Origin: Candidatus Altimarinota bacterium
Lineage (GTDB): Bacteria > Patescibacteriota > Gracilibacteria > JANQMV01
Direction: 5' to 3'
DNA: 64,000 bases
Assembly (NCBI GenBank): GCA_028279865.1
Contig: JANQMV010000010.1
Span: 3,630 to 67,629, forward strand
This document shows, one piece after another, positions 1 through 64,000 of the stretch. Below the pieces are notes generated by a model. The model was not told the DNA's origin. It did not search any database and worked only from the letters and a program-made list of their open reading frames with translations. Each line of letters starts with the position of its first letter. Within the stretch, counting starts at the first letter, position 1. The position numbers were made by a program, and so were the translations under genes.

Positions 1-942
1 AATATTAGCCAGGGTGATGGACAGACATCTACCGCAGGAGTTACAATTTCCTGCCATAACACAGCAAATGGGGGAACTTCCGGAAACGGAGGCTCTACAG
101 CTGGTACATATCAAGGTGGTGCAGGTTGAGGGCTAACAGGAAATGGTGCGAATGGAGGTTCGCATTGTGCTTTTGCTTATGGTGGTCAAAGTTTTTTGAA
201 TGGATGAGTCGGAGGGACGGGGAATTCTTGTTATACTTCTGAAAACTATGGTGGTTTCGGAGGAGGAGGAGGAGGTCAACTAGGGGGACCTGGAGCAGGT
301 GGAGGATATTCCGGATGAGGCAGTACAGGTAATTGGGCTAGCTATTCTACTTATGGTGGTGGTGGTGGATCCTATAACTCAGGGACAAATCAGTCTAACT
401 CTGCGGGTGTTAATAACGGACACGGTTATGTGAGCATCACATTACAATGAAATCCCGCATCTATAGCTTATGCTACTGCCAATCTTAATGGAAACAAGCA
501 AATTGTCTTCCTAGAGCTGCCTGCAGGGACTTCCATAACTTCAAATACGGAATACAAGGCATTTTGTGAAGCTCAAGGTTTTGCGCAAAATCAAAACTCA
601 AGCAGCAACAGTAATTACTTAAATGCTTGAATGCATAGCTCTTCAGAATATTATTGTTCAGATCATTGTTGTTATTTGGGCACAGGTAATAGTAAAGCTA
701 ATTCCTTAACTGCCTTCCAAAACCATGGCTTACCTATAAACACTAAATTTAGGGTGCGAGATCGTGGTTGTGGAAATTATGGTGGCAGTTTTAACCTTTG
801 AGAAAATACGACAGATTCCTTAGAAATAAACAGTTCGGGAGGTTTTTTTTATACACCTAACTATTATGGCTCATCTGATTTAGGCTCCTCAAGTCCTGAA
901 AGTTTTGCTTGAGACGGTCTTATTGTTTGCCAAAGTCAATAA
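1..942 (+). CDS. Glycine-rich exported protein, C-terminal part (5' end upstream of window). Needs table 25.
   Basis: Frame 1 is open from base 1 to TAA 940-942 only if TGA at 127, 205, 316, 448, 628, 799 and 910 are sense. The product has GGAG-TGA-G, NG-TGA-VGG, GAGGGYSG-TGA-GS and GGGGGSYNSG runs like the ALK/LTK-type glycine-rich domain, then a Cys-rich tail. Absent from the standard-code ORF track. Confidence 0.7.
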
Positions 943-6307: not shown

Positions 6308-6317
6308 AGGGTTTGTC

Positions 6318-7283
6318 TTAATTTTTTAAAGCAATTTTTCTCCAACGTATTAATAGTATCAAAATAATAAGACCAGCGAAAACAATTCCGACAATACCAT
6401 TTGCAAATTCATTGACAGGAGAGAATGATATCCAGAAAAAGACTGAACCAAAAATTAGGTTAACAAGATGTCTTTTCGTGACTTTCTGGTTAAGGATCTG
6501 ATAGAAAACAAACCAGAGTACTGCAAGGATAAGTATAAATTGCCAGAAAATTGTGTTATTTCCCGGTACGTTAATTTCAGCTAAAATATAAGGCATGAGG
6601 ACATTTATTCCTTGGAAGAGGAATCCGGCGAGCCAAAAAATTTTAGTTGAGAAAAGTTTAAACTTCTTTGAAACTTTATTTTTTCTGAAGAAATAAGTAA
6701 GCCAAATAAGCAATAATACTATTACGATGCTTCCACCGATGAGATCATCATTTGGTGTATAGTCCTTGTACATGGGCTCAAGTTTATATTCTATCAAAAA
6801 AACCATCCAAAAAAGCACAACACTTACTAAGCCAAGGAAACTAAAAAATAATCCTGTTTTTTTGAGTAATGGTTTGTTTTTATATTTTGGCCAACCTAAA
6901 TCGGTAATATAAATAGGGATGAGCGTACTTATGGTCGCATGAAAAAGTATAAGCATTAAAGTCCACGGTCACTGAATCTCGTCATGTAGACCGTAGCCAG
7001 AAAGTTCTCCCAGATCTCCATGGTCTAGATTAAAGCAAGATTGAATCATCGTTCCTTCTTCTAGAATCCCGTACGCAGCCGCAATAAAAAGAATACTCCA
7101 CTGAACTCTCCAGCGAACTTTTATTTCCCTAATAAGCAATGTCCCGCAGCCGTAGAGTAGAACTAGTAAAAAAAATGTAGCAGGGTGAAGAAACTCTAAT
7201 GGAGGAGTAGATCCTGAGATGACCTCTCCCAAGATAGGGGGCACCAAAAGTAACAAACCAATGATTTTTGTTCGAGTCTTCAT
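6318..7283 (-). CDS. Polytopic membrane protein, one gene with an in-frame TGA (table 25)
   Basis: Track ORF 6969-7283 ends at TGA 6971-6969. Four codons later, in the same frame, comes the ATG of ORF 6318-6956. Both halves are hydrophobic TM bundles. Confidence 0.6.
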
Positions 7284-11737: not shown

Positions 11738-14700
11738 ATGTTAAAAACAAAAAAACAAATTAGTAAGATTGCAACTTGAGCAATTCTACTACAGTTGATT
11801 TTTACTTGATTACAGACTACTCCTACAGTAAAAGCGGAAACAGTGATTAAAACGATTGATTTCACAATTGAAGCAAATTATAAGCAAGAAAATGCTGTTA
11901 ATGGAACTGATTACAGTTGAGGAAAAGTCACTTTGCATACAGATACTGATTCTTCACAGGCACCTGGAGATCAAATCAATATTGTTGACTCAGCAGCAAG
12001 TATTAACTTAGCATCATGAATTAAGTATTCTGATGTTTTGCCTTTTGACCCAGGTTCATGTTCTCCGCAAATTTTTGTAGATGAAAATTACGTTTGGGCA
12101 GCGGGAGCTTATGCAACCTGAGGAAAAATTTTTCGGGCACCTGTTAGCGATCCCATTCATTGATGGTCACACGTTGCCACGCTACCAGCACCTATCATTT
12201 GGAGCCAGTATGCTGTTTTTGACTGATATATGTATTTCTTCGGCGCACAGCACCATTCAGATATATTAAGAACACCGACTAGTGACCTTACAAATTGGTC
12301 AAAGATTGGAAACATGCCTGCTAACATTGGAGCAGGTTACACAATTGTAACCGATAATTACATTTATGTTTCTGATGGTTTTTCCGGTAGTTCAATTTAT
12401 CGAGCATCTAGAAGCGATCCGACAAACTTCTCTTATTATACAAGTGATCCTATAGCTAGCTCTACCTTAAAAGCTTTTAAATATGGATCAGATAAATACT
12501 ATCTCGTTTCAGGTGCAAAAACTTGGGAAATACCTATGGTTAATGGTGAACCAAATTTTGCTAGCACGATTACGCATAATAATAATGTAACTCTGGAAGT
12601 AACAAATCAGGCACTTATTATTATTGGTGATACAATTTATGCTTTTGGTTCCAATATTTATTCAACTACAATTGGGAGCTGGGGAAGTTGGTCTCAATTA
12701 GGCTCATATCCTAATGGTGATACCTTTGGCTATGCTAATCTTTTCACAGTAGGCAATAAATTATATGGTCTTGGTGACTACTGGAATAGAAACACAAATT
12801 ATAACGATATTTACAGTTGGGACTTAATTAATAATATGTTAAAAACACCAAATGTCAATGGGAGTGTTTTTCCTACAGATTATCCAACTGATAAGCCTTA
12901 CTATATTACGACAACTGATAGCTCAAACATTGATTTACCAGAAGGGGTGAGTCAAATTAATTCTCTAACAGTGACTTACTCTGAACCTACAAACACTTCA
13001 ATCAAGGGATTAGCTTCTTTTGATGGTCGCAATACCTGGGAAAAATGGAATGGAAGTGAATGGTGAGATGTTGGTGTTCCACTAGCTTATACGGATAATT
13101 TAGCCCAAGGGTGAGTTGCAAGCGCAAGTTCAATTTATAGTAGTTCTCACTTAGCATGAAACGCTTTTGATAATTTGGATGGGAATATGTGGAACTCCGC
13201 TAGCTCTGATCCACCAGGTTGGCTTAAGTATGATTTTGGCTCTGGGAATGAAAAAACAATCCAGCGAATTCGCATCCAGGCAGCAATAGCAGGTAATGCT
13301 GCTTATGCTCCTAAAACATTTACAATTCAAGCCTCAAATGATGATACAAACTGGGACATACTAGAGTCTTATACATCTATAGATAATTGGTCGAGCCTTG
13401 AGTGGCGGGATTTTGATTTCGCAAACTCGACAGCTTACAGATATTACAAAATAGATGTAACAGAATGTGAGTCAAATGCTTATATTGGTTGGACAAGTAC
13501 AGAAATGATGGAGATTGCACCAGATTATACCTCAGATTTAGCTACAAACCCTAGCAACGCAATTGATAATGGACATTTCTCAAACAGAACTGCTGCTGGT
13601 GCTTTTGATAATATTCATGGAGAGTGGAATCCGAACTCATGGGACGCCCCAAGAGATGGTTCAGATCGATGGGTAGGCTATGATTTTGGAGAAAATAAAA
13701 TAATTAATAAAATTAGAATTCGAAATGGTAATGGAGGTTTGCCTCATTATTCGATTAAAGACTTTCATATTGATGGCTGGAACGGAAGTAGTTGGGAGTT
13801 GATTCAGGCTGAAACAAGCTTGCCTCCATGGTCAAATGATGAATGGAGAGAGTTTATAATTGAAGCACCGCAGAGTTTCTCTAAATACAGGGTATTTATC
13901 GACGATACACATCACTCTGCATCTGCGAAAGACTCATGTATTTCAGAAATAGAGATGATGGGGGTAATCTCTACTGATCCTCTTGATAATCTCCAAAACG
14001 GTAACACTGTCTCAGAGATTGAAGCAGGTTTGACTAATCTAACCATCACAGACGAAGCTTCAGTGGACTTTGCTTTTGATTTAGCGACCACAGATTCTTC
14101 AGTCACTCCGAGTATTGATCAAATTAGCGTTTCTTATGAAGGTATTTTCAACTATGCTCCTCTTGATCCTGTTTTAAATAATCTCAATGACGGTGGCTTT
14201 CTGGCTGACACAACACCTACCTTCAGCTTTAACTTAGTCGATACAGATCTCGGAGCAAGTGTGCGCTATCAAATCCAAGTTGATAATAATGCAGATTTTA
14301 GTTCTCCCGAAATTGATTTTACAGAATTAACTCTCGTCGCAACTCCACGCCTAGGAGCAACCTACACACCAACCACAGGTTTACCTAATGATACCTTTTA
14401 CTGGAGGGTGAAAGCGATCGATAATGAAGGATTGGAAAGTAATTGGACGGAAGCAACACTTGGTTTCAGTCTTGATACCAATCTGCCTGTTTCTTCTATT
14501 CTGTACCCTCAAGACTGAGCTGATTTAAAGAAAGTTGAAAGCATTATCGGTAAATCTACCGACACAGGCGGAGTTGATTTTACGCGGATCAGTATTCTGG
14601 ATACCCTTTCTTATAAGTATTATAACGGTACAAGTTTTAGTGAAGATATTGAAACATGGATTCAGACTAATTCTGCAGGAGCAGGTAGTAGCAAGACAAG

Positions 14701-15733
14701 ATGGAGCTACCCTGCGCCTGTTTGGACTGAAGGACACACCTATACAATTCGTTCCAGAGCTACTGATTTAGCTGGTAATGAAGAGCGTACAGATGCGATT
14801 ACCTTTAAGTATGACACTATCAATGGACTTGAAGGCTCCATCTATCTTTCTAATCCGGGAATAAGCAATAATAGTGACTATAAGATTTATTATCCTAATA
14901 CGGCTGCCTTGCCGACTAATGCTTACATTGAAATAGATTTTGAAAATAGTTTTAAGTTTTCTCCTTGGCTTGAGCAAGCAGATGTGAATTTAACTGACAA
15001 CGGAGGTAATTTGACGGCTGTGGTTAGTAATTTTGACAGAACAAATAAAGTGATTACTTCTATGATTACAGGAGGAAGTGTAGCGGCACTTGATTTAATT
15101 GAACTGGAGATTAATAATCTGAGAATTCATAACCCTGCTTTAACAGGCAGTTACACTTTACCTATTCGTATTTATGACGAATTTGATGCTCTTCTCGAAT
15201 CGGGAGAAGGCACAATTTTTCTGGTTGATCCTTATCAACAAGTGGAGCTTAACATTGATGTCCAACAGTCTCTCCAGCTCAGTGTTGATTCTGGCAGTGT
15301 CCTTCTGGAGGTTGATCCGGATGTACAGCTGGGGCAGAACTGGTCGGGGACAGGAGGGGCGGTTAGTGAGCAAACTGAGGTCACGGTCAAGACTAATGCC
15401 CGGAGTGGTTACAAGTTGATGTTAAGTCTGGCGGGTTATACCAATTCCGGTAGTGCGGTCTTGGATGGGACGACTAATACGGGTAACACGATTACTTCTC
15501 TGACGGGGGACAGGGTCAGTACGGAGAACAACTTTTCTTTTGCTCGGGGGACAGGGACTTTAGCGACCGGTATGGCTTTCAGTAGTACGGCGACTGAGTT
15601 GATTGGAGCGGGAAGTAGTGGACCGACCAATGCTTTTTTGGACAGGATCTTCTATTATCTCAACATTGACTACACTACTCCGAGTGATACCTACAAAGGT
15701 ACCGTTACCTACACTGCCGTAGGTCAATTCTAA
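11738..15733 (+). CDS. Giant secreted surface protein (1331 codons) with two discoidin/F5-8 type C-like modules. Needs table 25.
   Basis: A single frame is open from ATG 11738 to TAA 15731-15733, with 11 in-frame TGA (11777, 11807, 11918, 12017, 12119, 12161, 12224, 13064, 13112, 13157, 14516). It joins track ORFs 12230-13066, 13175-14518 and 14909-15733, which share that frame. N-terminal signal peptide. NAFDN..W and GAFDNIHGEWNPNSW...IRIRNGNG motifs. FYWRVKAIDNEGLESNW. Confidence 0.75.
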
Positions 15734-15789
15734 AATAACGGTAGGTCTGTCCGCCTCAGGCGGATTACTTATACCGCAGTAGGGGAATT

Positions 15790-23343: not shown

Positions 23344-23791
23344 TTTAATTGAATTACAAATTGAAAATTATTTTGATCATTTTACAAAAACACAAATACC
23401 CCTAAAAAACCCCTCCATCGGCGGTTATTTTATACTAAATAAAATAATATGCAAGTACAAAAAAACTCCACAAATGCCGTATCTCCTCGTAACACACTTA
23501 ATCCTGATATGTACAGGTGGGAAGAGCCGGCAGGATCAGAGCCCCACGTAAAAACTCCTATTCCCTTAAGTGTTAAGAGCGAAATTGTATTACAAAAAGA
23601 CACGAACACCATAGAGCATCAAAATATTACCAATCAAAAAACTGTATTTCAATTTTTATCAATAGACAAAGAAAGGGAAAAATTGTTTGTTGTATTAATA
23701 TTTTGAACAAAGAACACTAAAACAACCTTAAAATAAGGCGAAAGTATGATAATGAAAAAATTAAATTACAAACTCCGGTTTTGCCTAAAAA

Positions 23792-24860: not shown

Positions 24861-25118
24861 ATGGAAAAATTCACTGTTTACATTCTTAAAAGTCAGTTAC
24901 GTGGTAAGCATTATATCGGTTATACTGTTGATATAAAGAAAAGATTAAAAGAGCATAACGAAGGTTTGAATAGATCGACAAAATATGGTGTTCCTTGGGG
25001 TATCGTTTACACAGAGGATGGTTTTAGAACTAGGTCGGATGCAATCAAGAGAGAGCGAGAGATTAAAAGTTGGAAAGGAGGAATAAAGTTTAAGTTATTG
25101 TTTAACCAGCGGGTATAG
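24861..25118 (+). CDS. Small GIY-YIG nuclease-family protein (YhbQ/URI-domain type)
   Basis: 85 aa. FTVYILKS...HYIGYT...RLKEHNEG...REREIKSWKG. Its last 10 nt, including the TAG stop, overlap the tRNA-Gly acceptor stem. Confidence 0.85.
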   Translation: MEKFTVYILKSQLRGKHYIGYTVDIKKRLKEHNEGLNRSTKYGVPWGIVYTEDGFRTRSDAIKREREIKSWKGGIKFKLLFNQRV

Positions 25119-25183
25119 TACAGTGGCTAGTACGTGGCGTTGCCAACGCTAAGACACGAGTTCGATTCTCGTTACCCGCTCCA
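25109..25183 (+). tRNA. tRNA-Gly (anticodon GCC), CCA encoded
   Basis: Hand-folded cloverleaf. Acceptor GCGGGTA/TACCCGC, D-arm GTAC-AGTGGCTA-GTAC, anticodon arm TGGCG-TTGCCAA-CGCTA with GCC at 25142-25144, T-arm ACGAG-TTCGATT-CTCGT, then discriminator T and CCA. Confidence 0.9.
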
Positions 25184-40962: not shown

Positions 40963-41016
40963 TAAAGGCTTCTATTCTATTAAATATTGATTTTTTGGTC
41001 AATGTAAATCTCATTT

Positions 41017-50491: not shown

Positions 50492-50759
50492 GAGGATTAG
50501 ATTAAAAGCATCAGTAAAAAACAACAAGCAGGTTGCTGCCTATAGCAAGGCTGTGCGTTCAGGTGCAAAAATTCAACATGTTGTTCCAAAAGATAAAAGT
50601 TGGGTGGTGAAAAGCACTAGCTCAATAAAAGCAACCAGAATATTTAATACTCAAAAGGAGGCTATTGATTATGGTAAAAAGGTGGCGAAAAATAACAAAA
50701 CGGATGTTATTGTTTATGGAAGAAATGGAAAAATCAGAGAAAGGACATCTTATAAATAA
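50484..50759 (+). CDS. DUF2188-family protein
   Basis: HVVPKDKSWVVKSTSSIKATRIFNTQKEAIDYGKKVAKNNKTDVIVYGRNGKIRE matches the DUF2188 pattern. Its start overlaps the upstream stop (ATGATTAA). Confidence 0.6.
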   Translation: MIKRIRLKASVKNNKQVAAYSKAVRSGAKIQHVVPKDKSWVVKSTSSIKATRIFNTQKEAIDYGKKVAKNNKTDVIVYGRNGKIRERTSYK

Positions 50760-50761
50760 AA

Positions 50762-52402
50762 TTGTTTCCCCAAGGATTTCTAGATAAATACCAGGCGCAA
50801 CTTTCGAAGGCTGATTTTGATCAGTTTCTTGAGTTTTGCCAAAAACCTTTGCGTAAAAGTATTCGAGTTAATACTTTGAAAATTTCAGTGGAAGATTTTC
50901 AAAAAATTGCTGAGGAAAAAGGTTGGGAATTAGAGCCGATTCCTTGGTGCGAAGAAGGCTTTTGGATTGAGCGTGAGAATCGGGATGAGCCACTGGGAAA
51001 TTCAATTGAGCATTTTTTGGGACTGTTTTATATCCAGGAAGCTTCTTCGATGATTCCACCGGAAATTCTAAATCCTCAGCTTGGAGAAAGAGTCTTGGAC
51101 ATGGCAGCTGCTCCGGGAAGTAAGACAACCCAACTTGCTGCCAAAATGCAGAATGAAGGAGTGTTGGCTTCAAATGAGCCGGTGGTGAAAAGGATAAAAG
51201 GCATGGTTTCAAACCTTGAAAGGTTAGGTGCAAGTTGCGTTGTGGTAAGTCGCAAAGATGGTCAGTTTTTCGGAGAAAATACACCTAATTTTTTTGATAA
51301 AATTTTACTTGATGCTCCATGTACTGGGGAGGGGACTGTGCGTAAAGATCCGAAGGCTCTTGAAAACTGGAGTCAGGAAAATATTGAGGGAATGGCACGT
51401 TTGCAGAAACAATTAATCAAGTCCGCTTTTGAAGCCTTGAAACCGGGAGGAGTGATGGTTTATTCGACGTGTACTTTGGCGAGAGAAGAGAATGAAGAGG
51501 TGGTGGAGTATTTGTTGGAAGAGTTTGAGGGGAATGCGGAATTGGTGCCTTTTTCTTTAAAGCCCCCTTTGAGGGGGGTGGGGGGTGTTGAGGATGGCGA
51601 AGTTCAAAGTGAAGAAAATTTCGTCATTCTGGCTTCTAGCGCAGCAAGAAAAAGTCCAGAATCTAAATCTCAAGTTGAGGAAGATTTCTCCACTACTCCC
51701 GCACAAGATAATTTAAAAGGAGCGGGATTCGGTCGAAATGACGCAGTATGTGGAATGATGACTATTTGGCCGCAGCTTTTTGATAGTGAGGGTTTTTTTG
51801 TGGCAAAAATTCGTAAGAACGAAAAAACAGAATTTAAAAAATTGAAAAAGAAAAAACATTTTACTTCTAAGTATCGGGTGCTGCGGAATAATGAGGTGGA
51901 GTTGATTCAGGAATATTTGGAGGAGCGTTTTGCTTATACTAGGAAATTGGTGAATCTCTTTAAACTTTATCAAAAGGAAAATCAGGTTTACTTTTGTCCG
52001 AAAGAAATTCGGGAAATTGATAAAAGAATTTATTTGGAAAGACGTGGTTTTCATGTTGGTGAATTTTTACACAAAAGAAGTGGGATCACAGAGTTTAAAA
52101 TCCATCATTTGGGGATAACGATTTTGGGAGATAAATTTACAAAAAATATTTTAAAATTAAGAGAAGGCGAGGTTAAAAAGTATCTTAAGGGGGAAAGTAT
52201 TGAAATTAAAAATGAAAAATTAAAAATGAAAAATGGGAGAACCCCCTTGAGGGGGCAGGGGGGTGTTGTTGATGATGAAGTTCAAAGTGATAATTTGAGT
52301 AATGGTGTTGTTGTTTTGAAATACAGAGGTGTTGTTTTGGGGAAAGGTTTGTTGAAGGGGGAGAATGTTAAGAATCAAATTCCGCGTTATTTGATTTGGT
52401 AG
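50762..52402 (+). CDS. rsmF: NOL1/NOP2/Sun-family rRNA m5C methyltransferase (RsmF/YebU-like) carrying two in-frame repeat insertions
   Basis: TTG start. FYIQEASSMIP, DMAAAPGSKTTQLA, LLDAPCTGEGTVRKDP, YSTCT and EGFFVAKIRK. Extra segments at about 51551-51750 and 52203-52290. Confidence 0.8.
   Translation: MFPQGFLDKYQAQLSKADFDQFLEFCQKPLRKSIRVNTLKISVEDFQKIAEEKGWELEPIPWCEEGFWIERENRDEPLGNSIEHFLGLFYIQEASSMIPPEILNPQLGERVLDMAAAPGSKTTQLAAKMQNEGVLASNEPVVKRIKGMVSNLERLGASCVVVSRKDGQFFGENTPNFFDKILLDAPCTGEGTVRKDPKALENWSQENIEGMARLQKQLIKSAFEALKPGGVMVYSTCTLAREENEEVVEYLLEEFEGNAELVPFSLKPPLRGVGGVEDGEVQSEENFVILASSAARKSPESKSQVEEDFSTTPAQDNLKGAGFGRNDAVCGMMTIWPQLFDSEGFFVAKIRKNEKTEFKKLKKKKHFTSKYRVLRNNEVELIQEYLEERFAYTRKLVNLFKLYQKENQVYFCPKEIREIDKRIYLERRGFHVGEFLHKRSGITEFKIHHLGITILGDKFTKNILKLREGEVKKYLKGESIEIKNEKLKMKNGRTPLRGQGGVVDDEVQSDNLSNGVVVLKYRGVVLGKGLLKGENVKNQIPRYLIW
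51563..51744 (+). repeat. Three repeat modules inside the rsmF-like gene
   Basis: 51563-51612 (CCCCCTTTGAGGGGGGTGGGGGGTGTTG...GAAGTTCAAAGTGA) is about 85% identical to 52242-52290. 51623-51663 is GTCATTCTGG...CCAGAATC. 51680-51744 is AAGATTTCTCCACT...CGGTCGAAATGACGC. Confidence 0.8.
52203..52290 (+). repeat. Second repeat insertion inside the rsmF-like gene
   Basis: A 25-nt exact match to murC 46275-46299, followed by a second copy of the CCCCCTTGAGGGGG-CAGGGGGGTGTTG module. Confidence 0.8.
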
Positions 52403-52761: not shown

Positions 52762-54360
52762 TTAATCATTGTCCGGATTGATTCTTTCCTCAAGCAAAAA
52801 CTCGCTAGGTATACTGTCATTAATACAGCAAAGGATATGCTCTAGAAGGTTTCCTAGGGTTAAATAGTTTGGCGTTTCTGATTTTTGGTTTGCACGTTTA
52901 GTTGTTATTTTCTGTGCATTTACTTTACTTTCCTTTTGCTGATTGCGTTTTCCTATTTTTACTAAACTATTGATGAATTTGTCTTTTTCTCCTGGTATGT
53001 CTTCTTGAAATAGAGTTGAAAGTAATCTTGCCTCTAAAGGAATCTTTTGAATTTCTCTCCTAGCTTGATTTATGTACACACTAAAACGTTTTTCAACAAA
53101 TTCTTTGATTTTTTGGGGAAATTTTTCTTTTTCTAAAAAATATCTAAAGTCGTTTTTTAAATCTCTTTCTTTGTTTTTAGTCGTTTTTGGGCAAGGTTTG
53201 TGATTTTTTTGGTGTATTGAGTATTGCTCTAGGATTTGTGCAAAAGTTTTTTGGTTCACGACTTCAGCTCCACATAGTTTTTTGATTTGAAACCAAAGAA
53301 AAGAAACCGTATTCATCTTTTTAAGATAATTAGAGTAAGATTTTTCTGAAAAAGATTCAGCGTTTAAAGGAGAATTTGGATGTTTTGCGATTTCTGGATA
53401 TTCTTGCACTAAATTTTTTATTTCTCTATGCAAGAGTTCTAAGCAGTTAGGTATCCTTATTTCAATTATTTTGATTAATTCTTTAAAATCACTACTCTTG
53501 ATAATTATTCCCCATTTTTTTTCTATTGAAATTATTTTATCTTCAATTTCTTCAAATTTTCTTTTTTGACAAAGTTCTTTTAGCTCCTTTTGGTTGCTTT
53601 CGTGTATTTTTATCTTTTTATCAGCATCCTTTTTTAATTTATCTACAAATAACTTTAATTTTTCAATCTTTTGTAGAAGGTTATTTAATTGGTTGATAAA
53701 GTGTATTTCTATAATGAAAGATCCGAGATTTCCATCTTTGTTGTTGAGATGTAGTGATTCTATCTTATTTTTAACTCCCAACAAACTAGTTTCTTTTTCA
53801 CTAAGTATACTTTTTATTTCTTCAAAGTCAGTTATTTTTTGTAAATTAATTGTTCTTAGAGCTTCTTGGGCTATTTTTGTTGGAGAGGCAATTTTCTCTA
53901 TCAATTTATCTAAGGCGTTCTCGTCGGGAAATTGGACTTTTTTTAAGAAGTAATCCAGCAATTCTGCATTATGCAGAATTGCTTGCATTTCTGGTTCTAT
54001 TACCTTCGAAACTTTTTCTTGGGTTTTGCTATCTGCAGCTGGTAAAACGCATACATCTGACAAGATTATCTGTAGCGCTTTTAAGGTTTTCCCTATGTTT
54101 AGTTTTTCTTTTTGAAAAAAAGCAACATCCTCAAAGCACTCTTTGGCTTTTTTTATACTGTCTCCAAGTCTTAAGAGGCTAAGTTCTGCCTTAAATTCTT
54201 TTTTTGAACTTAGGCATAAGGCAGATAAAATTTTTAGATTTATTTCAATCTGTATCTCTTTTAAAGTTTTTAAAAGAGGTACTACCTCTTCCTTCTTTTC
54301 TTTTAAAGTCTCTGAGTAGCCTCTTAATTGTTTTGTCAATTTTACTTTTTCTGCTGACAC
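52762..54360 (-). CDS. Hypothetical K/E-rich coiled-coil protein
   Basis: 532-aa ORF (GTG start), AT-rich. No motif recognised. Confidence 0.45.
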   Translation of the reverse strand: MSAEKVKLTKQLRGYSETLKEKKEEVVPLLKTLKEIQIEINLKILSALCLSSKKEFKAELSLLRLGDSIKKAKECFEDVAFFQKEKLNIGKTLKALQIILSDVCVLPAADSKTQEKVSKVIEPEMQAILHNAELLDYFLKKVQFPDENALDKLIEKIASPTKIAQEALRTINLQKITDFEEIKSILSEKETSLLGVKNKIESLHLNNKDGNLGSFIIEIHFINQLNNLLQKIEKLKLFVDKLKKDADKKIKIHESNQKELKELCQKRKFEEIEDKIISIEKKWGIIIKSSDFKELIKIIEIRIPNCLELLHREIKNLVQEYPEIAKHPNSPLNAESFSEKSYSNYLKKMNTVSFLWFQIKKLCGAEVVNQKTFAQILEQYSIHQKNHKPCPKTTKNKERDLKNDFRYFLEKEKFPQKIKEFVEKRFSVYINQARREIQKIPLEARLLSTLFQEDIPGEKDKFINSLVKIGKRNQQKESKVNAQKITTKRANQKSETPNYLTLGNLLEHILCCINDSIPSEFLLEERINPDND

Positions 54361-54491
54361 AGTAAGAAATATTTTAAATGATAATCTAATTTAAGGTAAA
54401 ATAACAGGTGAAACATTTTAGTGTTTTACCTAAAAAAATCAATCTTTTTTTGATTATTTAATGATTACTTAATTTTTTACAAGATTTGGAC

Positions 54492-56358: not shown

Positions 56359-59300
56359 CTATCCCAAAATTACTTTAATTTTCTCTTGTAGTTCCGGAGT
56401 TTTTGTGACTTTTAGATTTGTTTTGCGTACTCGCCCGTCAATTTCCAAGCTAACTGTTTCTAAGCCTTTATTTTCAGATAAAAGTTGGCTTAGTTGAACA
56501 AAAGTATTTTTATCCTGATTTTTGATTTTTATCACAAAGCCTTCCTCTCTATCTTCGTTTTTTGCTTTAACAAGGGGGGCTACACTATCATTTTCCGGCA
56601 TATCAGACAAGTTTTCCGCGGCTTCAGTTTTTCGCTCAAAGTCTCCTTCCATTTTGGCAGCTTTAACTTTTGTTAAAGTTGCGTCTAAGTTGACTTCTTC
56701 AAGTTTGTTCGCAATGAGTTGTAGCTCTTCATTACGGGTATTAACATTCCCCGTAAAAGCAAACGCTTTGTCTTCCTCAATCTGTTCTCCGTAATTTTGG
56801 TATGTTTTAGGAAAAATTGTTACCTCAATTTCTCCGGAAGGATCTTCAACTGTTAAAATCAACATGGTGTCTCCTTTCTTTGTCGTAATTTTTCTTAGTT
56901 TATTGATAATTCCGGCAATTTTTACAGAGTCACCGTCTTTTAAATTTGTAATCAAAGCATAGTGTTTTTGCCAATATTTTCCCAAACCTTCCAGAGGATG
57001 TTCGCTTACATAAAAGCCAAGTAAATCTTTTTCCCAACTAAGCCTTTGTGTTTTTTTTGCCGGATCAACTTGCTTTAATTCCAAGGCGAAACCCTGCTGT
57101 GCAGCTCCTCCAAAAAGATCCATCTGATTTTCCGCAGCTTTTTCTTGGCAATTTTTTGCATGCTCCAAAATTAATTCATGTCCATTAAGAACCTTATTTC
57201 TTTCTTCCAGAGAATCAAATGCTCCGGCTTTAGCTAAAGCTTCAATTACTTTTTTATTCAAAGACTTGTATTTCACTCTTTTACAAAAATCTTCAATTGA
57301 GGAAAATTTTATCTCATCTTTACCTCGTGCATCTTTAATTGCCTGAATCGCAGCTTCTCCTACTCCTTTTACTGCAGATAAACCGAAACGAATATTTTTA
57401 CTCTTTACTACCGTGAAGTTGGCAAGAGATTCATTAATATCAGGTGGCAGAACATCAATTCCCATTTGTTTGCATTCAGCTATTTCCAAGGCGATCCTGT
57501 CACTATTCCCATGATCAGCCGTCAATAAAGCCGCCATAAATTCGGTAGGATAGTGAGCCTTCAAATAAGCTGTCTGATAGGCAATCAGTGCGTAGCAGGC
57601 AGCGTGACTTTTATTGAATCCGTAACCGGCAAAAGGCTCAATTACTTTATCAAAAATTTGCACAGCGTTATCTCTAGAATGACCAAGCCCTTCGGCTCCT
57701 TCAATAAATTTTGCTCTCTGGGATTTTAATTCACTGATGATTTTTTTACCGATGGCACGTCTGAGAATATCAGCTGAACCGAGAGAAAAACCTGCAAAAA
57801 CTTGAGCAATTTGTAGAATTTGTTCCTGATAAATGGCAATACCGTAGGTTTTATCCAAAATCGGTTTTAGAGATTCGTGTAAATAATTAACTTTTTTCTT
57901 ACCATGCTTACCTTTGATGTAGTCAGGAATCCACTCCATAGGTCCCGGACGGTAGAGCGAAACCATCGCAATGATGTCCTCAAATTCTGTCGGTTTTAAT
58001 TCTTTTAAATATCTTCTCATTCCGGGAGATTCCAGCTGAAAAACTCCGGTTGTTTGAGCTTTTTGTAAAAGCTCAAAAGTTTTTTTGTCCTCCATTTTGA
58101 TCTCGTCAAGATCAACAGTTTTCCCGCTAACTCTCTTAATTATGTTAATTGCCGTTTGTAAAATTGTGAGGTTTTTCAAACCGAGGAAGTCCATTTTCAA
58201 AAGACCAAGGCTTTCCAAAGGCTTGGCGGAATATTGGGAAATAATGGTTTGATCATCTTTAGGCGGGTGTTGAAGTGCCGTATATTTTGTCAGCTTATCA
58301 TCAGAAATCACTACTGCACAAGCATGTACGGAAATATGACGGACAACCCCCTCCAAGAGCAGGGCTGTATCAAAAACTTTTTTGTATTCAGCTGAAGAAT
58401 TATAGGCTTCTTTAAGTTCATTTTCTGTTTCCAGAGCTTCTTGAAGCTTTGTCCCAGGTCTATCCGGTATCATTTTGGAAAGTGCATTCATTTCATCAAA
58501 AGGAATTCCCAAAGCTCGTCCGGTGTCTTTTACTGCCGCTTTGGCTGCCAGCGTTCCAAAAGTTGAAATCTGAGCGACGTGGTCTGAACCGTATTTTTCG
58601 CGTACATAATTAATCACTTGATCGCGCTTGTCATCAGCAAAGTCAATATCGAAATCCGGCATGGAAATACGTTCCGGATTTAAAAATCTTTCGAAAAGCA
58701 GGTCATATTCAAGCGGATCAAGATCTGTAATACTTAAAGCATAAGCGATGATCGATCCGGCACCACTACCACGCCCCGGTCCGACCATGATGCCTTGCTC
58801 TCTAGCCCATTTCACATAATCCCAGACTATCAAAAAATAAGATTCAAATTCCATTTTTTCAATGATCGAAAGCTCGTAATCAAGACGTTCTTTTATTTCT
58901 TTTTCTTGAGATCTTACCCCATATCTCATTTCCAAACCTTCTTGACATTTTTCACGTAAATATTCACGAGGTGAAAGCTTTTTCTTTTCTTCGGGTACTT
59001 TGAACACCGGGATCAAGTTTTTCCCGAATTCAAAATTTACATTACAACGATTGGCAATTTCAACGGTATTACTAATTGCCTCAGGGTGTTCGGTAAATTG
59101 TGCCGCCATATTTTCGGGACTTCGTAACGAGTAATTTCCATCCATCATGCTCATTCGATTTGATTCTTGCACAGTTTTGTTTGTTTGAATGCAAACCAAA
59201 ACATCTTGAGAAAATTTATCTTCTTCATTGACATAGTGGCAGTCGTTTGTGGCAATAAGCGGAATTTTGAGGTCTTTGCTCAACTCAAATAATTTTCGAT

Positions 59301-59865
59301 TAACAATGTTTTGTCCTTCAAGATTGGGGTGATGCTGAACTTCTAAAAAGAAATTTTCTTTCCCGTAGGTTTTTTGAAAACGTTTAATTAATTCTCTTGC
59401 CTTATTTTCATCATCATCAAGGAGCGCTTGAGGGATTTCACCTGCGATACAGGCTGTTGTAGCTATCAAACCTTTACTATGTTGTTGCATCAAATCCCAA
59501 TCAATTCTTGGTTTGTAATAAAGTCCGTCAAGGTAAGCTCTAGTGCTTAATTCGAGCAAGTTTTGATAACCTTCTTGGTTTTCAGCAAGTAAAATAAGAT
59601 GATAGCGTTTCTTATCAAGTTGAGCGTTTTTTTCGGTATGCTTACTTTTTGCAACGTAAAACTCACAACCAATAATCGGTTTGAGATCTTCTTTTTTGGC
59701 TTCTTTATAAAATTCGATCGCACCATACATGTTTCCATGATCTGTGATCGCAAGTGCAGGAGAGCCATGCTCTTTGGCTTTTTGAATATAGCTTTTGGGC
59801 TTGCCAAGTCCATCCAGAAGCGAGTAATGAGTATGGACATGCAAGTGTACAAATTGATTTGACAT
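56359..59865 (-). CDS. dnaE: DNA polymerase III alpha subunit
   Basis: MSNQFVHLHVHTHYSLLDG (PHP domain), the polymerase core, and an OB fold near the C-terminus. The start is placed at the Met that begins the family match; the track ORF extends 14 codons upstream. Confidence 0.95.
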   Translation of the reverse strand: MSNQFVHLHVHTHYSLLDGLGKPKSYIQKAKEHGSPALAITDHGNMYGAIEFYKEAKKEDLKPIIGCEFYVAKSKHTEKNAQLDKKRYHLILLAENQEGYQNLLELSTRAYLDGLYYKPRIDWDLMQQHSKGLIATTACIAGEIPQALLDDDENKARELIKRFQKTYGKENFFLEVQHHPNLEGQNIVNRKLFELSKDLKIPLIATNDCHYVNEEDKFSQDVLVCIQTNKTVQESNRMSMMDGNYSLRSPENMAAQFTEHPEAISNTVEIANRCNVNFEFGKNLIPVFKVPEEKKKLSPREYLREKCQEGLEMRYGVRSQEKEIKERLDYELSIIEKMEFESYFLIVWDYVKWAREQGIMVGPGRGSGAGSIIAYALSITDLDPLEYDLLFERFLNPERISMPDFDIDFADDKRDQVINYVREKYGSDHVAQISTFGTLAAKAAVKDTGRALGIPFDEMNALSKMIPDRPGTKLQEALETENELKEAYNSSAEYKKVFDTALLLEGVVRHISVHACAVVISDDKLTKYTALQHPPKDDQTIISQYSAKPLESLGLLKMDFLGLKNLTILQTAINIIKRVSGKTVDLDEIKMEDKKTFELLQKAQTTGVFQLESPGMRRYLKELKPTEFEDIIAMVSLYRPGPMEWIPDYIKGKHGKKKVNYLHESLKPILDKTYGIAIYQEQILQIAQVFAGFSLGSADILRRAIGKKIISELKSQRAKFIEGAEGLGHSRDNAVQIFDKVIEPFAGYGFNKSHAACYALIAYQTAYLKAHYPTEFMAALLTADHGNSDRIALEIAECKQMGIDVLPPDINESLANFTVVKSKNIRFGLSAVKGVGEAAIQAIKDARGKDEIKFSSIEDFCKRVKYKSLNKKVIEALAKAGAFDSLEERNKVLNGHELILEHAKNCQEKAAENQMDLFGGAAQQGFALELKQVDPAKKTQRLSWEKDLLGFYVSEHPLEGLGKYWQKHYALITNLKDGDSVKIAGIINKLRKITTKKGDTMLILTVEDPSGEIEVTIFPKTYQNYGEQIEEDKAFAFTGNVNTRNEELQLIANKLEEVNLDATLTKVKAAKMEGDFERKTEAAENLSDMPENDSVAPLVKAKNEDREEGFVIKIKNQDKNTFVQLSQLLSENKGLETVSLEIDGRVRKTNLKVTKTPELQEKIKVILG

Positions 59866-60133: not shown

Positions 60134-61618
60134 ATGAAAAACAAAAAACATTTTATTTTTGTGATGCTTTTAAGTTTTAGCTTGTCTTGATGCTTCTTTC
60201 AACCAGAGTCAACACAAAAATTACCTTCTGGTACAGAGGAAGATCTTGTCACGCTTGAGAATGAAAAGATTTGAGACAAAACACAAGTTTGAATGTCTGG
60301 TTCGCACCTTCTTGAGGATGATCAAAGTGAAGTTGAGCAAACAGATTTAACAAAATTGGATTGACTGATTGACTCCAGAAACCTAGAAGGGTGTGCAGAG
60401 TTAACAGAAGAGTGATTGCAAGAATTTTGTCTTGAAAATATAAAAAACCTGATTGCTTTTGATGAGGTTAAATGCAATGAAATAGAAGAAGATATAGATT
60501 TAAAAAAAGATTGCTTAAAATATAAAGAAGAAATAACAGCCTATGAAAAAGAGTTAGCAGAGTATGAGAAACAAAGCAAAGGGATAACTAAGGCTGAAAT
60601 AAATTGTCAAGATGAGGAAAAAACACCTTTTACTGCAGCTTTTTGTGAAGCAGATAGCACCGAAAAACAAAATATTTTATACGATTTTAACCAGTTTGAT
60701 GATCTTCTTGCGTATTATGAAGATTTGTACGAAGGGAAAAAACAAGATGTGCAATTTTTGAATTCCTATGCTTTGACTTTGGTTCAAAAAGGTAGCCTTG
60801 AAATGCAAGAAAAAGTTTATGGACAAAAAGCCTTGGCTTTGGCGGATGAAGTACTTGCAATGGAATCAAAAAATGCAGAAGCTCTCTATATAAGAGGGTA
60901 TGCAAATGAGATTCAGGAAAATTATGCAGAAGCTTTAAGTGCCTATGATCAGGCTCTTGAAATTAATTCTGAAAATGCTTTGGTAATTAGCCAAAAAGGA
61001 CACGCGTATCGTCTCATGGGAGAATACGAAAAGGCAAAAGAATATTTCCAACAAGCTTTAGCGATAGATCCTGATTTACCCCATGCTCTTCTCAATTTAG
61101 GCAATGTTTTCTTGAGCGAATGAGACAAGGACAAAGCGATTGAGCTTTATGAAAAAACCTTGAATTTAACCAGTAATATACGTTTTCAGGCAGAGGCGAG
61201 CTATGCTCTTGGCTCGATTTATACTTTTGAAGAGGATTACTTAAAGTCAAAAAATTACTTCCAACAAACCATTAGTGTCGACCCCAAATTTGAAGCGGGT
61301 TATATCGGCTTAGCTAGAGTGCAGTTCTTAATGGCGTTTGATGAAGAGAAGACTGTCGATGAATCAACTAATTTAATTGCTGATTCATTTAACAATTTGA
61401 TTTATGCCATTGATTTGAATCCAGAGAAAACGCTGGTTTATTATCAACTGGGTACACAATATAAAATTATGGAGATTGAAGGGAATGCCGAAAAGGCAAA
61501 ATTGATGTTTGAAAAAGCTCTGGAAGTTGTGAAGAATGACATAACTTTATCTGTTCACGAAAAAGACGAAATGCGTGAAATGATCAACCTGGAAATGGCT
61601 GAGCTTATTTCTAATTAA
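60134..61618 (+). CDS. TPR-repeat lipoprotein. Needs table 25.
   Basis: One frame is open from ATG 60134 to TAA, with 6 in-frame TGA (60188, 60272, 60290, 60362, 60413, 61121). It joins track ORFs 60416-61123 and 61160-61618. The signal peptide ends LSFSLS-TGA-C. Multiple TPR units follow. Confidence 0.75.
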
Positions 61619-61648: not shown

Positions 61649-63715
61649 ATGCAAAATATAAAAAGAACAACCCTTACTTGTGCTTTATTAATAAGTTTAT
61701 TTGGTTTTTGAGAAATTGTCTATGGATTTTCACAGGTTATTACTGTCGGAGGAGAGCAAGTTAGGGTAACAGGAGCAAGTCAGCAACAGTTAAATGATTG
61801 GGTCAACCACGCTAGATCTACATGAAGCTTCTCGCAAGCGCGAAGTGATTTGCTAAGATGAGCAGATCATGCTGGAGGAGGGGTCGCGTATAATTCAGCA
61901 ACAAGAGTTACTTGTGTGAATTGAGCCGGTTTAGAGTTAATACCCTCACAACCGCCACCACCACCAACTAGATATACGCATTATACGACATGATCATGGT
62001 GAAGTTGTTCCGGTTCTTGGTCGAGTTGGAGAATTAGTGGCAGTCAGAAATGTCGTACACTTTCGGGTACACAAAGTCGCTCGGTAACTTCTTATACCAG
62101 TTATAATGGACCGAATCAAAGTCGACCTTCTAGCTCGAGACCTTGTAATGATTCTCAATGTGTTTCAGTTCCAACTTATACACGTTATTCTACATGACCA
62201 TGGTGAAGTTGTTCCGGTTCTTGGTCGAGTTGGAGAATTAACGGCAGTCAGAAATGTCGCACACTTTCTGGTACGCAAAGCCGTTTGGTAAGTTCTTATT
62301 CAAGCTATAGCGGACCAAGCCAAAGTCGACCTTCTAGCTCAAGATCTTGTAGTGATTCTCAATGTGTCCCACGTCCGAGGTATACGCATTATACGACATG
62401 ATCATGGTGAAGCTGTTCCGGTTCTTGGTCGAGTTGGAACTCAAGCAATCATTGTAGAACTTATTCAGGTACTCGCAGTCGTTCGGTGACTTCTTACACA
62501 AACTACACCCCTCCGAATGAAAGCCGACCTTCTAGCTCGACATCTTGCACTCGTTTGGAATGCGATAATACCTCTCCAACCTGTCAAATTGCCTTAAGCA
62601 CAACTCAATGGTCTAATTCCAACATTACCGCGACTGCGAGTTGTCATGAAACAGGTTCTCCTGTGTCAGGTTGTACGCAATCAACTCAAAATCAAACACT
62701 GACATCCAATGGTCAAGTTGCGAATTTTACAGTTTCAGATAAGGCAGGTAATCAAGTTAGCTGCCAAAGTAATGCGGCAAAAATTGACAAACTCGCGCCA
62801 AGCTGTGCCGTTGCCTTAGAACCAAGTGGTTGGGTGGACGAGAGTGAAGAGGCTAAAGTGGTTGCGACATGTACTGATCAGAATGCATCCAGTTCTTCAG
62901 GTAATTCAGGTTGTCTACAAAACACCAAAACAGAAGAGATAGCAGAAGCGAGAGAAGTTACCTTGACTGTCGCAGACCAGGCTGGAAATACCACAACTTG
63001 CGAATCTGTTTATCCAAAGATTCATTATGTTGAAATCCGAGGTTTACAAAATACAGAACCTAGTCCTGCTCTTAAGCAAGAATTAACGAATATAATTCGA
63101 CAAAATGTTGCAGATTTAACTCGAAACCAATTTCCAAATCCGAATAACAATATTTTAAATTATAATCTGAATAATAGTAGTATTGCTTATTATGAAGGAG
63201 ACGTCAGTTTGGATGCTTTTACCGTTTCCGGCAAAAAGACAATAATTGTTAAGGGCGGTAATTTATACTTAAAATGAAATGTAACTTATACCGATGCTAG
63301 TAGCATTTTAGGAATTATAATTTTACAAGATACTGATGGAAATGAAGGTGATGTTTACATAGACAATCAAGCGACAGATGTTCATGCAATTTTATTTTCC
63401 GAAGGTACAATGTTTAGTGTGAGTGGTAACACGAATACGATTATTGCAGATCGAGACAATACACTGATTAATCAGCTTTATTGGAAAGGCAGTGTGATTA
63501 CAAGTAATACGATTTGAGGTTTTAAAGACGGCACGGGCACACGAGAAAATGATTTGAAATATTTCAGGAGCTATCATCCGACGACAGGCGGACAAAAGTC
63601 TGGTGATCCTCAAGGTAGTGAAGCACCGATGATTATAGAGTATGATTCTGGTCTTCAAGGAAATGTTCCATATGGATTTGAACAACCTTCAGGATTTAGC
63701 TTTCAAGGAATTTAA
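61649..63715 (+). CDS. Secreted Cys/Trp/Ser-rich repeat protein. Needs table 25.
   Basis: One frame is open from ATG 61649 to TAA 63713-63715, with 12 in-frame TGA. It contains track ORF 62486-63277. Signal/TM segment TLTCALLISLFGF. Three 68-aa repeats, each with a GSWSSW...C...R.R motif. Confidence 0.7.
61973..62570 (+). repeat. Three tandem 204-nt coding repeats
   Basis: Units start at 61973, 62177 and 62381, each with TATAC(G/A)C(A/G)TTAT.C.ACATGA.CATGGTGAAG.TGTTCCGGTTCTTGGTCGAGTTGGA. The third unit diverges in its second half. Confidence 0.85.
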
Positions 63716-63879
63716 GATTTTTATCAACATCCATTAAAGTCAATGCCATGTTTTATCAAACAAGAAATACAAAACAAACTAAGTCTCCCTTCAAGGGGTG
63801 AAATGGTGCTTTTCTCAACTTGAGGAGTTTTACTCTACTACGTCTTTTTTCGTGATCACTACAAAAGACTTCACTAGAA

Positions 63880-64000
63880 ATGATGCGATTTGTCAAGGGG
63901 GGGCTAAGAGGGGCGTTCTGTCGCTGTTTAGCAACAATTCTTCTCTTTCAACTTATTCTTCCTGCAAACTTTATTTCTCAAGCCCAAGCCCTCACGACTA
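63880..64000 (+). CDS. N-terminus of a secreted protein (continues beyond the window)
   Basis: MMRFVKGGLRGAFCRCLATILLFQLILPANFISQAQA-LTT is a classical signal peptide with an AQA cleavage site. Confidence 0.4.
   Translation, partial: MMRFVKGGLRGAFCRCLATILLFQLILPANFISQAQALTT

What the first reader, a model, noticed from the sequence alone, without database searches (positions are those of the whole stretch)
60134..61160. Sequence context identifies the TGA-encoded residue as glycine (table 25), not tryptophan (table 4)
(1) The signal peptide of the 60134 gene ends L-S-TGA-C at 60182-60193. Gly gives a perfect lipobox (LSGC), like the other lipoproteins here (LTGC, LAGC, LSAC); Trp does not. 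(2) TGA 61121 falls at TPR position 8 (NLGNVFLSE-TGA-DKDKAIELYEKTL), aligned with the Gly of the preceding repeat (GHAYRLMGEYEKAKEYFQQAL). (3) In gene 1-942 the TGA codons sit inside glycine runs (GGAG-TGA-G, GGGYSG-TGA-GS). (4) TGG is used freely for Trp throughout. UGA=Gly is the code reported for Gracilibacteria (BD1-5) and Absconditabacteria (SR1).
Basis: partly seen in the sequence, partly recalled or inferred. Interest (0 to 1): 0.75.

Follow-up and report, generated by a model that had tools for sequence, protein, structure and literature searches.

The report
Sparse TGA sense codons, probably glycine
In this uncultured candidate-phyla-radiation (CPR) bacterium TGA never ends a gene and is read as an amino acid in only five cell-envelope genes; most tests point to glycine, but one codon sits on a nearly invariant tryptophan.

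Summary
L-S-TGA-C lies at 60182-60193, and TGA 61121 lies in the loop of a TPR repeat (position 15, not 8). The TGAs in gene 1-942 sit in glycine runs.

TGA is absent from 42 other genes (14,391 codons) and from all 46-47 gene ends. All 37 in-frame TGAs lie in five envelope-protein genes.

Close relatives (72-84% DnaE identity) also lack TGA in the roughly 18 genes seen. Relatives at 52-56%, named Peregrinibacteria, Peribacteraceae or Gracilibacteria, use TGA as a stop.

Glycine is favoured by several soft tests: TPR profile scores, an F5/8 swap test calibrated on true Trp and Gly, Kelch and ALK glycine-rich-domain alignments, the lipobox, and a GGA deficit.

The only TGA in a deeply sampled family (6969-6971) aligns with Trp in 124 of 150 homologues and with Gly in none. 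This codon may be polymorphic in the population.

Verdict: TGA is a sense codon. Glycine is probable (about 0.7) but not proven, and usage is atypical for code 25. No tRNA-UCA or RF2 gene is in the window, so neither could be checked.

The parts
60134..61618 (+). Gene for an envelope protein: N-terminal signal or lipoprotein-like peptide, acidic coiled region and TPR repeats. It has 6 in-frame TGAs (60188, 60272, 60290, 60362, 60413, 61121) and no TGG.
   Evidence: Public gene calls split it at TGA into 235- and 152-residue pieces.
60182..60193 (+). L-S-TGA-C at residues 17-20 of the signal peptide. It is a lipobox if TGA is Gly, Ala or Ser.
   Evidence: Three other lipoproteins in the window carry LTGC, LAGC and LSAC at residues 14-17 or 17-20.
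61121..61123 (+). TGA at TPR position 15, the inter-helix loop.
   Evidence: TPR_1 bit scores by residue placed here: G 29.7, K 28.4, N 28.0, R 26.5, S 26.2, C 25.6, A 23.8, W 19.4.
61649..63715 (+). Gene for a secreted protein with three thrombospondin-like repeats (T-T-x-S-W-x-S-C-S-G-S-W-S-S-W), Ig-like modules and a C-terminal beta-rich domain. It has 12 in-frame TGAs and 13 TGG.
   Evidence: No homologues were found.
11738..15733 (+). Gene for a 1,331-residue surface protein: signal peptide, Kelch-like propeller, two F5/8 type C domains and Ig-like modules. It has 11 in-frame TGAs and 32 TGG (33 in the whole open frame from 11660).
1..942 (+). 3' part of a gene for a glycine-rich protein homologous to the ALK/LTK glycine-rich domain, followed by a Cys-rich C-terminal domain. 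It has 7 in-frame TGAs (127, 205, 316, 448, 628, 799, 910) and 1 TGG.
6318..7283 (-). Gene for a polytopic membrane protein, labelled PF27245 AF_0692 (a weak hit) in the collection's precomputed table. It has a single in-frame TGA at 6969-6971, aligned with a nearly invariant Trp.

Best explanation
The window comes from a CPR bacterium of the Gracilibacteria/Peregrinibacteria radiation.

In this organism UGA no longer terminates translation; it is read as an amino acid. This much is shown.

The inferred mechanism is a tRNA with anticodon UCA and loss of release factor 2. Neither gene is in the window.

In the four TGA-rich genes the inserted residue is most likely glycine, as in genetic code 25.

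Unlike known code-25 bacteria, this lineage keeps UGA out of all housekeeping genes and uses it only in a few fast-evolving, strain-variable envelope and adhesin-type genes.

The most likely reason (inferred) is a young or weak reassignment. UGA was first purged as a stop, and it now survives only in genes that are weakly constrained or were exchanged with UGA-rich code-25 neighbours.

The lone TGA in the membrane-protein gene is best read as a recent, possibly still polymorphic TGG-to-TGA change at a Trp codon.
For: Sense codon:
- Long open frames carry 6-12 TGAs and no TAA or TAG.
- Pfam domains are continuous across TGAs.
- The membrane protein is as conserved after its TGA as its homologues are among themselves: 31-41% against 20-37%.

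Not a stop:
- 0 of 46 gene ends in the window are TGA, and 0 of about 18 in relatives L164-L166.
- In more distant relatives about 20% of stops are TGA (my count from the ORF tables).
- On that rate, the chance of 0 in 64 is about 6e-7.

Glycine:
- TPR_1 scores 29.7 with G against 19.4 with W; TPR_7 29.9 against 21.9; TPR_8 25.0 against 16.9. G is the best of the eight residues tried.
- F5/8 swap test. Changing true Trp to Gly shifts the score by -7.3, -5.7, -7.3, -0.6 and -0.4 bits. Changing true Gly to Trp costs 1.5-3.9 bits. At the TGA column, G beats W by 3.8 bits.
- In the alignment to the designed Kelch protein 8pjw (E = 1.9e-4), TGA 12224 falls on the hairpin Gly. TGA 12161 falls on Glu, next to the canonical Trp, which is encoded by TGG.
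- In the alignment to the ALK glycine-rich domain (score 119 against 55 +/- 9.5 for shuffles), TGA 316 falls on Gly of GGGYIGG and TGA 205 on Ala.
- A Big_7 match appears only with G at TGA 14516.
- The L-S-x-C motif fits a lipobox.
- GGA makes up 34.8% of GGN codons in the five genes against 45.9% elsewhere (p = 0.0019). It is 43.2% if TGA is counted with GGA.

Restricted use:
- 37 TGAs in 3,147 codons against 0 in 14,391. Counted against GGN codons, Fisher p = 9e-24.

Lineage:
- Named DnaE relatives at 50-57% identity are Ca. Peregrinibacteria, Peribacteraceae, Gracilibacteria and Patescibacteria.
Against: - The only TGA in a deeply sampled protein family is opposite Trp in 124 of 150 homologues and opposite Gly in none.
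- The TPR gene has no TGG, so under Gly it would lack Trp altogether.
- One F5/8 homologue has Trp opposite TGA 13157.
- A true Trp in the Kelch alignment also falls on a Gly of 8pjw, so pairwise columns are soft evidence.
- The GGA deficit is also seen in one TGA-free secreted protein.
- No tRNA-UCA was found in the window or the fetched relatives. The absence of RF2 could not be tested.
- Efficient decoding of 12 TGAs in one gene sits awkwardly with total avoidance elsewhere.
- Synonymous codon usage of the five genes is not foreign-looking.
Confidence: 0.55

Rival explanations
1. TGA encodes tryptophan (table 4), as in Mycoplasmatales and in the recently reported Minisyncoccia lineages of the same phylum. 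TGG-to-TGA changes have drifted to fixation only in weakly constrained envelope genes.
For: - The membrane-protein TGA lies on a Trp conserved in 124 of 150 homologues, within the motif QWPWT.
- The TPR gene has 6 TGA and 0 TGG, which gives a normal 1.2% Trp under this reading.
- The F5/8 homologue P0002 has A-W-K-A-F-D where the window has A-x-N-A-F-D.
- Table 4 is reported in Patescibacteriota.
- TGG to TGA is a single transition favoured by AT pressure (general knowledge).
Against: - Trp is the worst of eight residues tried at the TPR site, 6-10 bits below polar residues in TPR_1.
- In the F5/8 domain the conserved-Trp columns are all TGG, and the TGA column penalises Trp like a Gly column.
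- Kelch, ALK-domain, Big_7 and lipobox positions favour small or turn residues.
- Trp content would be 2.6-3.7% in four of the five proteins against 0.73% elsewhere.
- The TGA share of Trp codons would range from 8% to 100% between the five genes and be 0 of 105 elsewhere.
Confidence: 0.2
2. UGA is decoded conditionally or ambiguously. A suppressor-type tRNA-UCA, native or acquired with the envelope genes, is limiting or regulated. UGA then acts as a translational gate on a small regulon of surface proteins, much as the rare TTA codon and the bldA tRNA do in Streptomyces. Core genes are kept UGA-free by selection.
For: - The distribution is strictly bimodal: 37 against 0 TGAs.
- All five TGA genes encode envelope proteins, while cytoplasmic genes have none.
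- In-frame TGA is strongly avoided in core genes although TGA is common out of frame.
- The Gly and Trp signals conflict between genes.
Against: - Other envelope proteins (SLH, PKD, three lipoproteins, transporters) have no TGA.
- No tRNA or regulator was seen.
- Twelve gated codons in one gene would need near-complete decoding to give product.
- The bldA analogy comes from general knowledge and was not tested here.
Confidence: 0.12
3. The four TGA-rich genes are recent imports from a code-25 donor and are not properly expressed in a host where UGA is unassigned or still a rarely used stop. The membrane-protein TGA is an ordinary TGG-to-TGA nonsense mutation.
For: - This reconciles Gly-like contexts in four genes with a Trp-aligned TGA in the fifth.
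- The tpr-tsp pair is absent from the same position next to dnaE in relatives L165 and L166.
- Logan contigs of three samples break at or inside these genes, which suggests strain variability.
Against: - 0 of 64 gene ends use TGA in this clade, against about 20% in relatives.
- About 8.5 kb of intact, stop-free dead genes in a small genome is unlikely.
- Their synonymous codon usage lies within the host range.
- The membrane protein shows no decay after its TGA.
Confidence: 0.08

Closest known systems
Genetic code 25 (UGA = Gly) of Absconditabacterales/SR1 and BD1-5, GTDB class JAEDAM01
   Same: Same phylum (Patescibacteriota) and similarly low GC. UGA is not used as a stop and occurs in frame. 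Most testable UGA positions fit Gly.
   Different: - Known code-25 genomes use UGA heavily as a glycine codon (PMC10746230). Here it is absent from 42 of about 47 genes, including all housekeeping genes.
- The nearest named relatives are table-11 lineages that use TGA as a stop.
- One UGA aligns with a conserved Trp.
- tRNA-Gly(UCA) and loss of RF2 were not observed.
- CGA and CGG are used normally, unlike the Arg-to-Trp change reported in Absconditabacteria (PMC8629427).
Genetic code 4 (UGA = Trp) in Mycoplasmatales, insect endosymbionts, and the Minisyncoccia family JAKLIH01 and genus GCA-2747955
   Same: UGA is sense and absent from gene ends. The phylum is known to hold table-4 lineages. 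One UGA lies on an invariant Trp.
   Different: In table-4 genomes UGA columns are dominated by Trp across conserved proteins. Here the conserved-Trp columns of the TGA-rich genes are TGG, and their TGA columns disfavour Trp.
Stop-codon recoding confined to a subset of genes in phages (late or structural genes, with a phage suppressor tRNA)
   Same: Recoded codons are concentrated in a minority of genes while the rest are compatible with the standard code (PMC10746230).
   Different: This is a cellular chromosome (dnaE, dnaB, gyrA, obg, guaB, murC). No phage genes or suppressor tRNA were seen. The host itself avoids TGA stops.
Codon-capture intermediate (Osawa-Jukes model); the rare-codon regulon bldA/TTA in Streptomyces
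   Same: The codon has vanished from most genes and persists or reappears in a few. This is the state predicted between loss of the old meaning and spread of the new one (model summarised in PMC8629427).
   Different: No such intermediate has been documented for UGA in CPR bacteria. The resemblance is an inference, not a tested membership.

Membership tests
Genetic code 25 organism (UGA = Gly) | In-frame UGA inside genuine protein-coding genes | tested here: met
   37 in-frame TGAs in five genes, with Pfam domains and family homology continuous across them.
Genetic code 25 organism (UGA = Gly) | UGA not used to end genes | tested here: met
   0 of 46 stops in the window and 0 of about 18 in relatives L164-L166.
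Genetic code 25 organism (UGA = Gly) | UGA columns aligned with Gly in conserved proteins | tested here: inconclusive
   Gly or small/turn residues are favoured at about eight positions in repeat or domain profiles and in alignments to a few homologues. The single deep family column is Trp in 124 of 150 homologues and Gly in none.
Genetic code 25 organism (UGA = Gly) | tRNA-UCA with glycine identity elements (G1:C72, C2:G71, G3:C70, U73) | not testable with these tools
   The only tRNA in the window is Gly-GCC at 25109-25183. No tRNA-UCA was found in the six fetched loci that were scanned. The rest of the genome cannot be reached.
Genetic code 25 organism (UGA = Gly) | Loss of release factor 2 (prfB) | not testable with these tools
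   No prfB was seen among the annotated window genes, but a 64-kb window cannot show absence.
Genetic code 25 organism (UGA = Gly) | Frequent UGA use across the proteome, housekeeping genes included | tested here: not met
   0 TGA in 14,391 codons of 42 genes, including dnaE, gyrA, dnaB, obg, guaB, murC, nusG and rplK.
Genetic code 25 organism (UGA = Gly) | Phylogenetic position in class JAEDAM01 (Absconditabacterales + BD1-5) | tested here: inconclusive
   The best named DnaE hits are table-11 groups at 50-57% identity, and four loci of such relatives use TGA stops. However, code-25 DnaE would be fragmented in most gene calls and could have been missed, and no marker-gene tree was made.
Genetic code 4 organism (UGA = Trp) | UGA columns aligned with Trp in conserved proteins | tested here: inconclusive
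   Met at one column. Not met at the TPR, F5/8, Kelch, Big_7 and ALK-domain positions.
Genetic code 4 organism (UGA = Trp) | tRNA-Trp(UCA) or an altered tRNA-Trp(CCA), and loss of RF2 | not testable with these tools
   No tRNA-Trp gene lies in the window.

The most novel reading that the evidence does not exclude
A clade inside the otherwise standard-code Gracilibacteria/Peregrinibacteria radiation has purged UGA from every core gene, both as a stop and as a sense codon. It reads UGA as an amino acid only in a few hypervariable envelope genes.

That would be either a living intermediate of codon capture (a reassignment caught early, possibly independent of the known SR1/BD1-5 event) or a UGA-gated surface-protein regulon.

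Public gene calls treat the contig as standard code and split these genes, so coding-density screens would miss this state.
Probability: 0.35. Interest if true: 0.85.

Novelty: new variant of a known kind. Interest (0 to 1): 0.62.

Why it matters
UGA reassignment in Patescibacteria is known. What is documented are genomes in which the new meaning is already used throughout.

A lineage in which UGA has lost its stop function and is used in only about 10% of genes would be different, especially with standard-code relatives close by. It would let the order of events in codon reassignment be studied directly: stop purging, RF2 loss, tRNA gain, spread of the codon.

It also matters in practice. Coding-density heuristics would call such genomes table 11 and break exactly the large surface proteins that probably mediate host attachment. 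The public gene calls for this contig do split them.

Finally, it shows that context arguments for Gly against Trp can be contradicted by a single well-sampled family column.

Tried and rejected
- Word-index homologue searches with the 1,331-residue protein gave only three weak F5/8 hits. A chimeric query of all five proteins gave nothing. As a result, no codon-level comparison with orthologues could be made.
- The exhaustive search and the structure prediction refuse sequences with X or a substituted residue. Only a stop-free segment could be searched, and no model across a TGA could be built.
- A naive-Bayes classifier of +/-5 residue context, trained on 1,385 ORFs, did not separate Trp from Gly. 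Mean scores were W 0.84, G 0.40 and TGA 0.62. Uninformative.
- The three DNA repeats of gene 61649 are nearly identical over the TGA codons, so TGA/TGG/GGN interchange could not be assessed.
- tblastn and pattern scans of viral contigs, phages and plasmids gave no useful homologue.
- PDB searches for the thrombospondin-like repeats and the Ig-like module gave only chance hits.
- Foreign origin judged by synonymous codon usage: the five genes lie within the spread of the others.
- Selenocysteine, frameshifting and pseudogene decay were rejected. There are 6-12 TGAs per gene, the frame is unchanged, and there is no TAA or TAG.
- An Absconditabacteria-type CGA/CGG reassignment was rejected. Both codons are used normally.
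- ORFs 5894-6367(+), 23449-23736(+), 40202-40582(+) and 54095-54319(+), which contain TGA, were judged spurious. They overlap or lie antisense to TGA-free genes.

Full report
**What is in the window**

The 64-kb window is a cellular chromosome segment of about 35% GC. It carries dnaE (56359-59865, -), dnaB, gyrA, obg, guaB, murC, rsmF, nusG-rplK, an ADP-forming acetyl-CoA synthetase, an SLH protein and a PKD protein. The only tRNA or Rfam hit is tRNA-Gly(GCC) at 25109-25183.

**The observation**

- The gene starts at ATG 60134, and L-S-TGA-C lies at 60182-60193.
- TGA 61121 is in frame in NLGNVFLSE-x-DKDKAIELYEKTL. Counting from the TPR Gly8, this is position 15, the loop between the two helices. 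It is not position 8, but it does align with the Gly of the previous repeat.
- The other lipoboxes (LTGC, LAGC, LSAC) exist.
- The glycine-run contexts in gene 1-942 exist.
- The gene continues to 61618. It has six TGAs and no TGG.

With TGA read as sense there are about 47 credible genes.
- All 37 in-frame TGAs lie in five genes: 1-942 (7), 6318-7283 (1), 11738-15733 (11), 60134-61618 (6) and 61649-63715 (12).
- The other 42 genes (14,391 codons) have none, although TGA is common in their other two frames.
- No gene ends in TGA: 32 end in TAA and 14 in TAG.
- Counted against GGN codons, 37 of 287 against 0 of 859 gives Fisher p = 9e-24.
- All five genes encode envelope proteins: four have signal peptides and one is a polytopic membrane protein. 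Other envelope proteins have no TGA.

**TGA is a sense codon**

- Frames of 1,358, 699 and 507 codons contain TGAs but no TAA or TAG.
- Pfam F5/8 type C and TPR matches run across TGAs.
- The membrane protein is as similar to its homologues after the TGA (31-41%) as they are to each other (20-37%).

**Lineage**

- DnaE has unnamed relatives at 84, 82 and 72% identity. Named relatives at 50-57% are Ca. Peregrinibacteria, Peribacteraceae, Gracilibacteria and Patescibacteria.
- The three close relatives (L164-L166, about 30 kb and about 18 genes) also have no TGA stop and no in-frame TGA.
- Relatives at 52-56% (L004, L084, L169, L171 and L174, the last named Ca. Gracilibacteria by NCBI) do end genes in TGA. 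This is roughly one stop in five by my count from the ORF tables.
- At that rate, 0 of 64 has a probability of about 6e-7.
- According to a 2026 preprint, table 25 belongs to GTDB class JAEDAM01, while class Gracilibacteria in the GTDB sense uses table 11. Some Minisyncoccia use table 4. The residue therefore cannot be assumed from taxonomy.
- The tpr-tsp gene pair is not next to dnaE in L165 or L166.

**Evidence for glycine**

1. TPR site. TPR_1 scores with different residues at the TGA are G 29.7, K 28.4, N 28.0, R 26.5, S 26.2, C 25.6, A 23.8 and W 19.4. TPR_7 gives 29.9 with G against 21.9 with W.
2. F5/8 domain, with an internal calibration. Changing true Trp to Gly shifts the score by -7.3, -5.7, -7.3, -0.6 and -0.4 bits. 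Changing true Gly to Trp costs 1.5-3.9 bits. At TGA 13157, G beats W by 3.8 bits. The column therefore behaves like a Gly column and unlike any true Trp column of the same domain.
3. Kelch-like propeller, aligned to the designed Kelch protein 8pjw (E = 1.9e-4). TGA 12224 falls on the hairpin Gly of QGRIYVLGG. The protein's other blades have N, D, D and N there. TGA 12161 falls on Glu, beside the canonical Trp, which is TGG.
4. Glycine-rich protein. It is homologous to the ALK/LTK glycine-rich domain (score 119 against 55 +/- 9.5 for shuffles). TGA 316 falls on Gly of GGGYIGG and TGA 205 on Ala.
5. A Big_7 match appears only with G at TGA 14516.
6. Two of three F5/8 homologues have Gly opposite TGA 13112.
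7. L-S-x-C is a lipobox only with Gly, Ala or Ser.
8. GGA is 34.8% of GGN in the five genes against 45.9% elsewhere (p = 0.0019). It is 43.2% if TGA is added to GGA.

**Evidence for tryptophan**

- An exhaustive HMMER search with residues 1-104 of the membrane protein found 1,156 relatives.
- In an alignment of the best 150, the TGA column (6969-6971) is Trp in 124, then Phe 6, Thr 4, Ile 3 and Leu 3. Gly never occurs. The nearest subfamily reads GVQWPWT where this protein reads EIQxPWT.
- The TPR gene would have a normal Trp content only under table 4.
- One F5/8 homologue has Trp opposite TGA 13157.

Mitigating points:
- The loop just before this codon is remodelled in our protein. The family's conserved Gly three residues upstream is Glu here.
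- The Logan contig of SRR20820732 begins at 6970, one base from the third position of this codon. That is the signature of an assembly-graph branch at that base. The TGA may therefore be a segregating TGG-to-TGA variant.

**Weighing**

- Adding rough log-odds, the Gly-favouring sites outweigh the one Trp column. But they are repeat or domain profiles and alignments to a few homologues, and a true Trp also falls on a Gly of 8pjw.
- My estimates are about 0.7 for Gly in the TGA-rich genes, about 0.2 for Trp, and the remainder for conditional or ambiguous decoding or non-expressed imports.
- No single amino acid fits every site.

**Mechanism**

- Shown: UGA is not a stop, is sense in five genes, and is excluded from the rest.
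- Inferred: a tRNA-UCA (Gly) and loss of RF2.
- The restriction is best explained by a recent or weak reassignment combined with turnover or exchange of envelope genes.
  - The five genes are not compositionally foreign.
  - They coincide with places where independent assemblies of three samples break: 15736, 62002, 362/197 and 6970.
- Their code-11 fragments are singletons in the 15-billion-protein collection and come from NCBI and Logan gene calls. The public gene calls held in that collection therefore split them.

**Verdict**

- It is a new variant of a known kind. It is interesting mainly for the gene-restricted use of UGA in a lineage whose relatives use the standard code.

Noticed in passing
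window 6969-6971; L173 (starts at window 6970), L172 (starts at 6993): The Logan contig from SRR20820732 stops exactly one base short of the third position of the membrane-protein TGA. This suggests a TGA/TGG (or other) polymorphism at 6969 in the population.
   Followed up: partly
window 15716-15736, 62002, 362 and 197 (ends of L176-L178, L001-L002, L167, L168): Independent assemblies of three samples break at the 3' end of gene 11738-15733, inside the repeats of gene 61649 and inside gene 1-942. The TGA-rich genes seem to be strain-variable or repetitive regions.
   Followed up: partly
window 1-942: The glycine-rich protein is homologous to the ligand-binding glycine-rich (polyglycine-II) domain of the animal receptor kinases ALK and LTK. 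This is unusual to see in a CPR bacterium.
   Followed up: partly
window 61970-62580: There are three tandem repeats of about 68 residues with a thrombospondin-type-1-like core (W-x-S-C-S-G-S-W-S-S-W ... C). Each has two TGAs at fixed positions. The DNA of the first 20 codons is nearly identical between repeats.
   Followed up: partly
window 25460-29716 (-): A 1,418-residue NACHT-like NTPase gene has the lowest GC in the window (28%). It lies next to tRNA-Gly(GCC) at 25109-25183 and may be an acquired island.
   Followed up: no
window 9776-11257, 50756-52402, 52762-54390, 39649-40971: Several open frames extend far upstream of their first ATG. In the Mur ligase and RsmF frames, Pfam domains begin upstream of that ATG. 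This implies non-ATG start codons or mis-set starts.
   Followed up: no
window 63748-64000 (+): An open frame with two more in-frame TGAs starts just after gene 61649 and runs off the window. The sequence is not convincingly protein-like, so it may or may not be a sixth TGA-bearing gene.
   Followed up: partly
L165 1-2500; L166 1-1900 (upstream of dnaE in relatives): In the 84% and 72% relatives the position of the tpr-tsp pair is occupied by unrelated genes (BcrAD/HgdD-like genes in one, a response regulator with an HD domain in the other). The dnaE-dnaB-queD-like gene order downstream is conserved in the 82% and 72% relatives (L164, L166); the L165 contig ends in the gene after dnaE.
   Followed up: partly
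proteins P0274-P0277: Public gene calls (NCBI and Logan sources) for this contig split the recoded genes at TGA. Each fragment is a singleton cluster among 15 billion proteins.
   Followed up: yes
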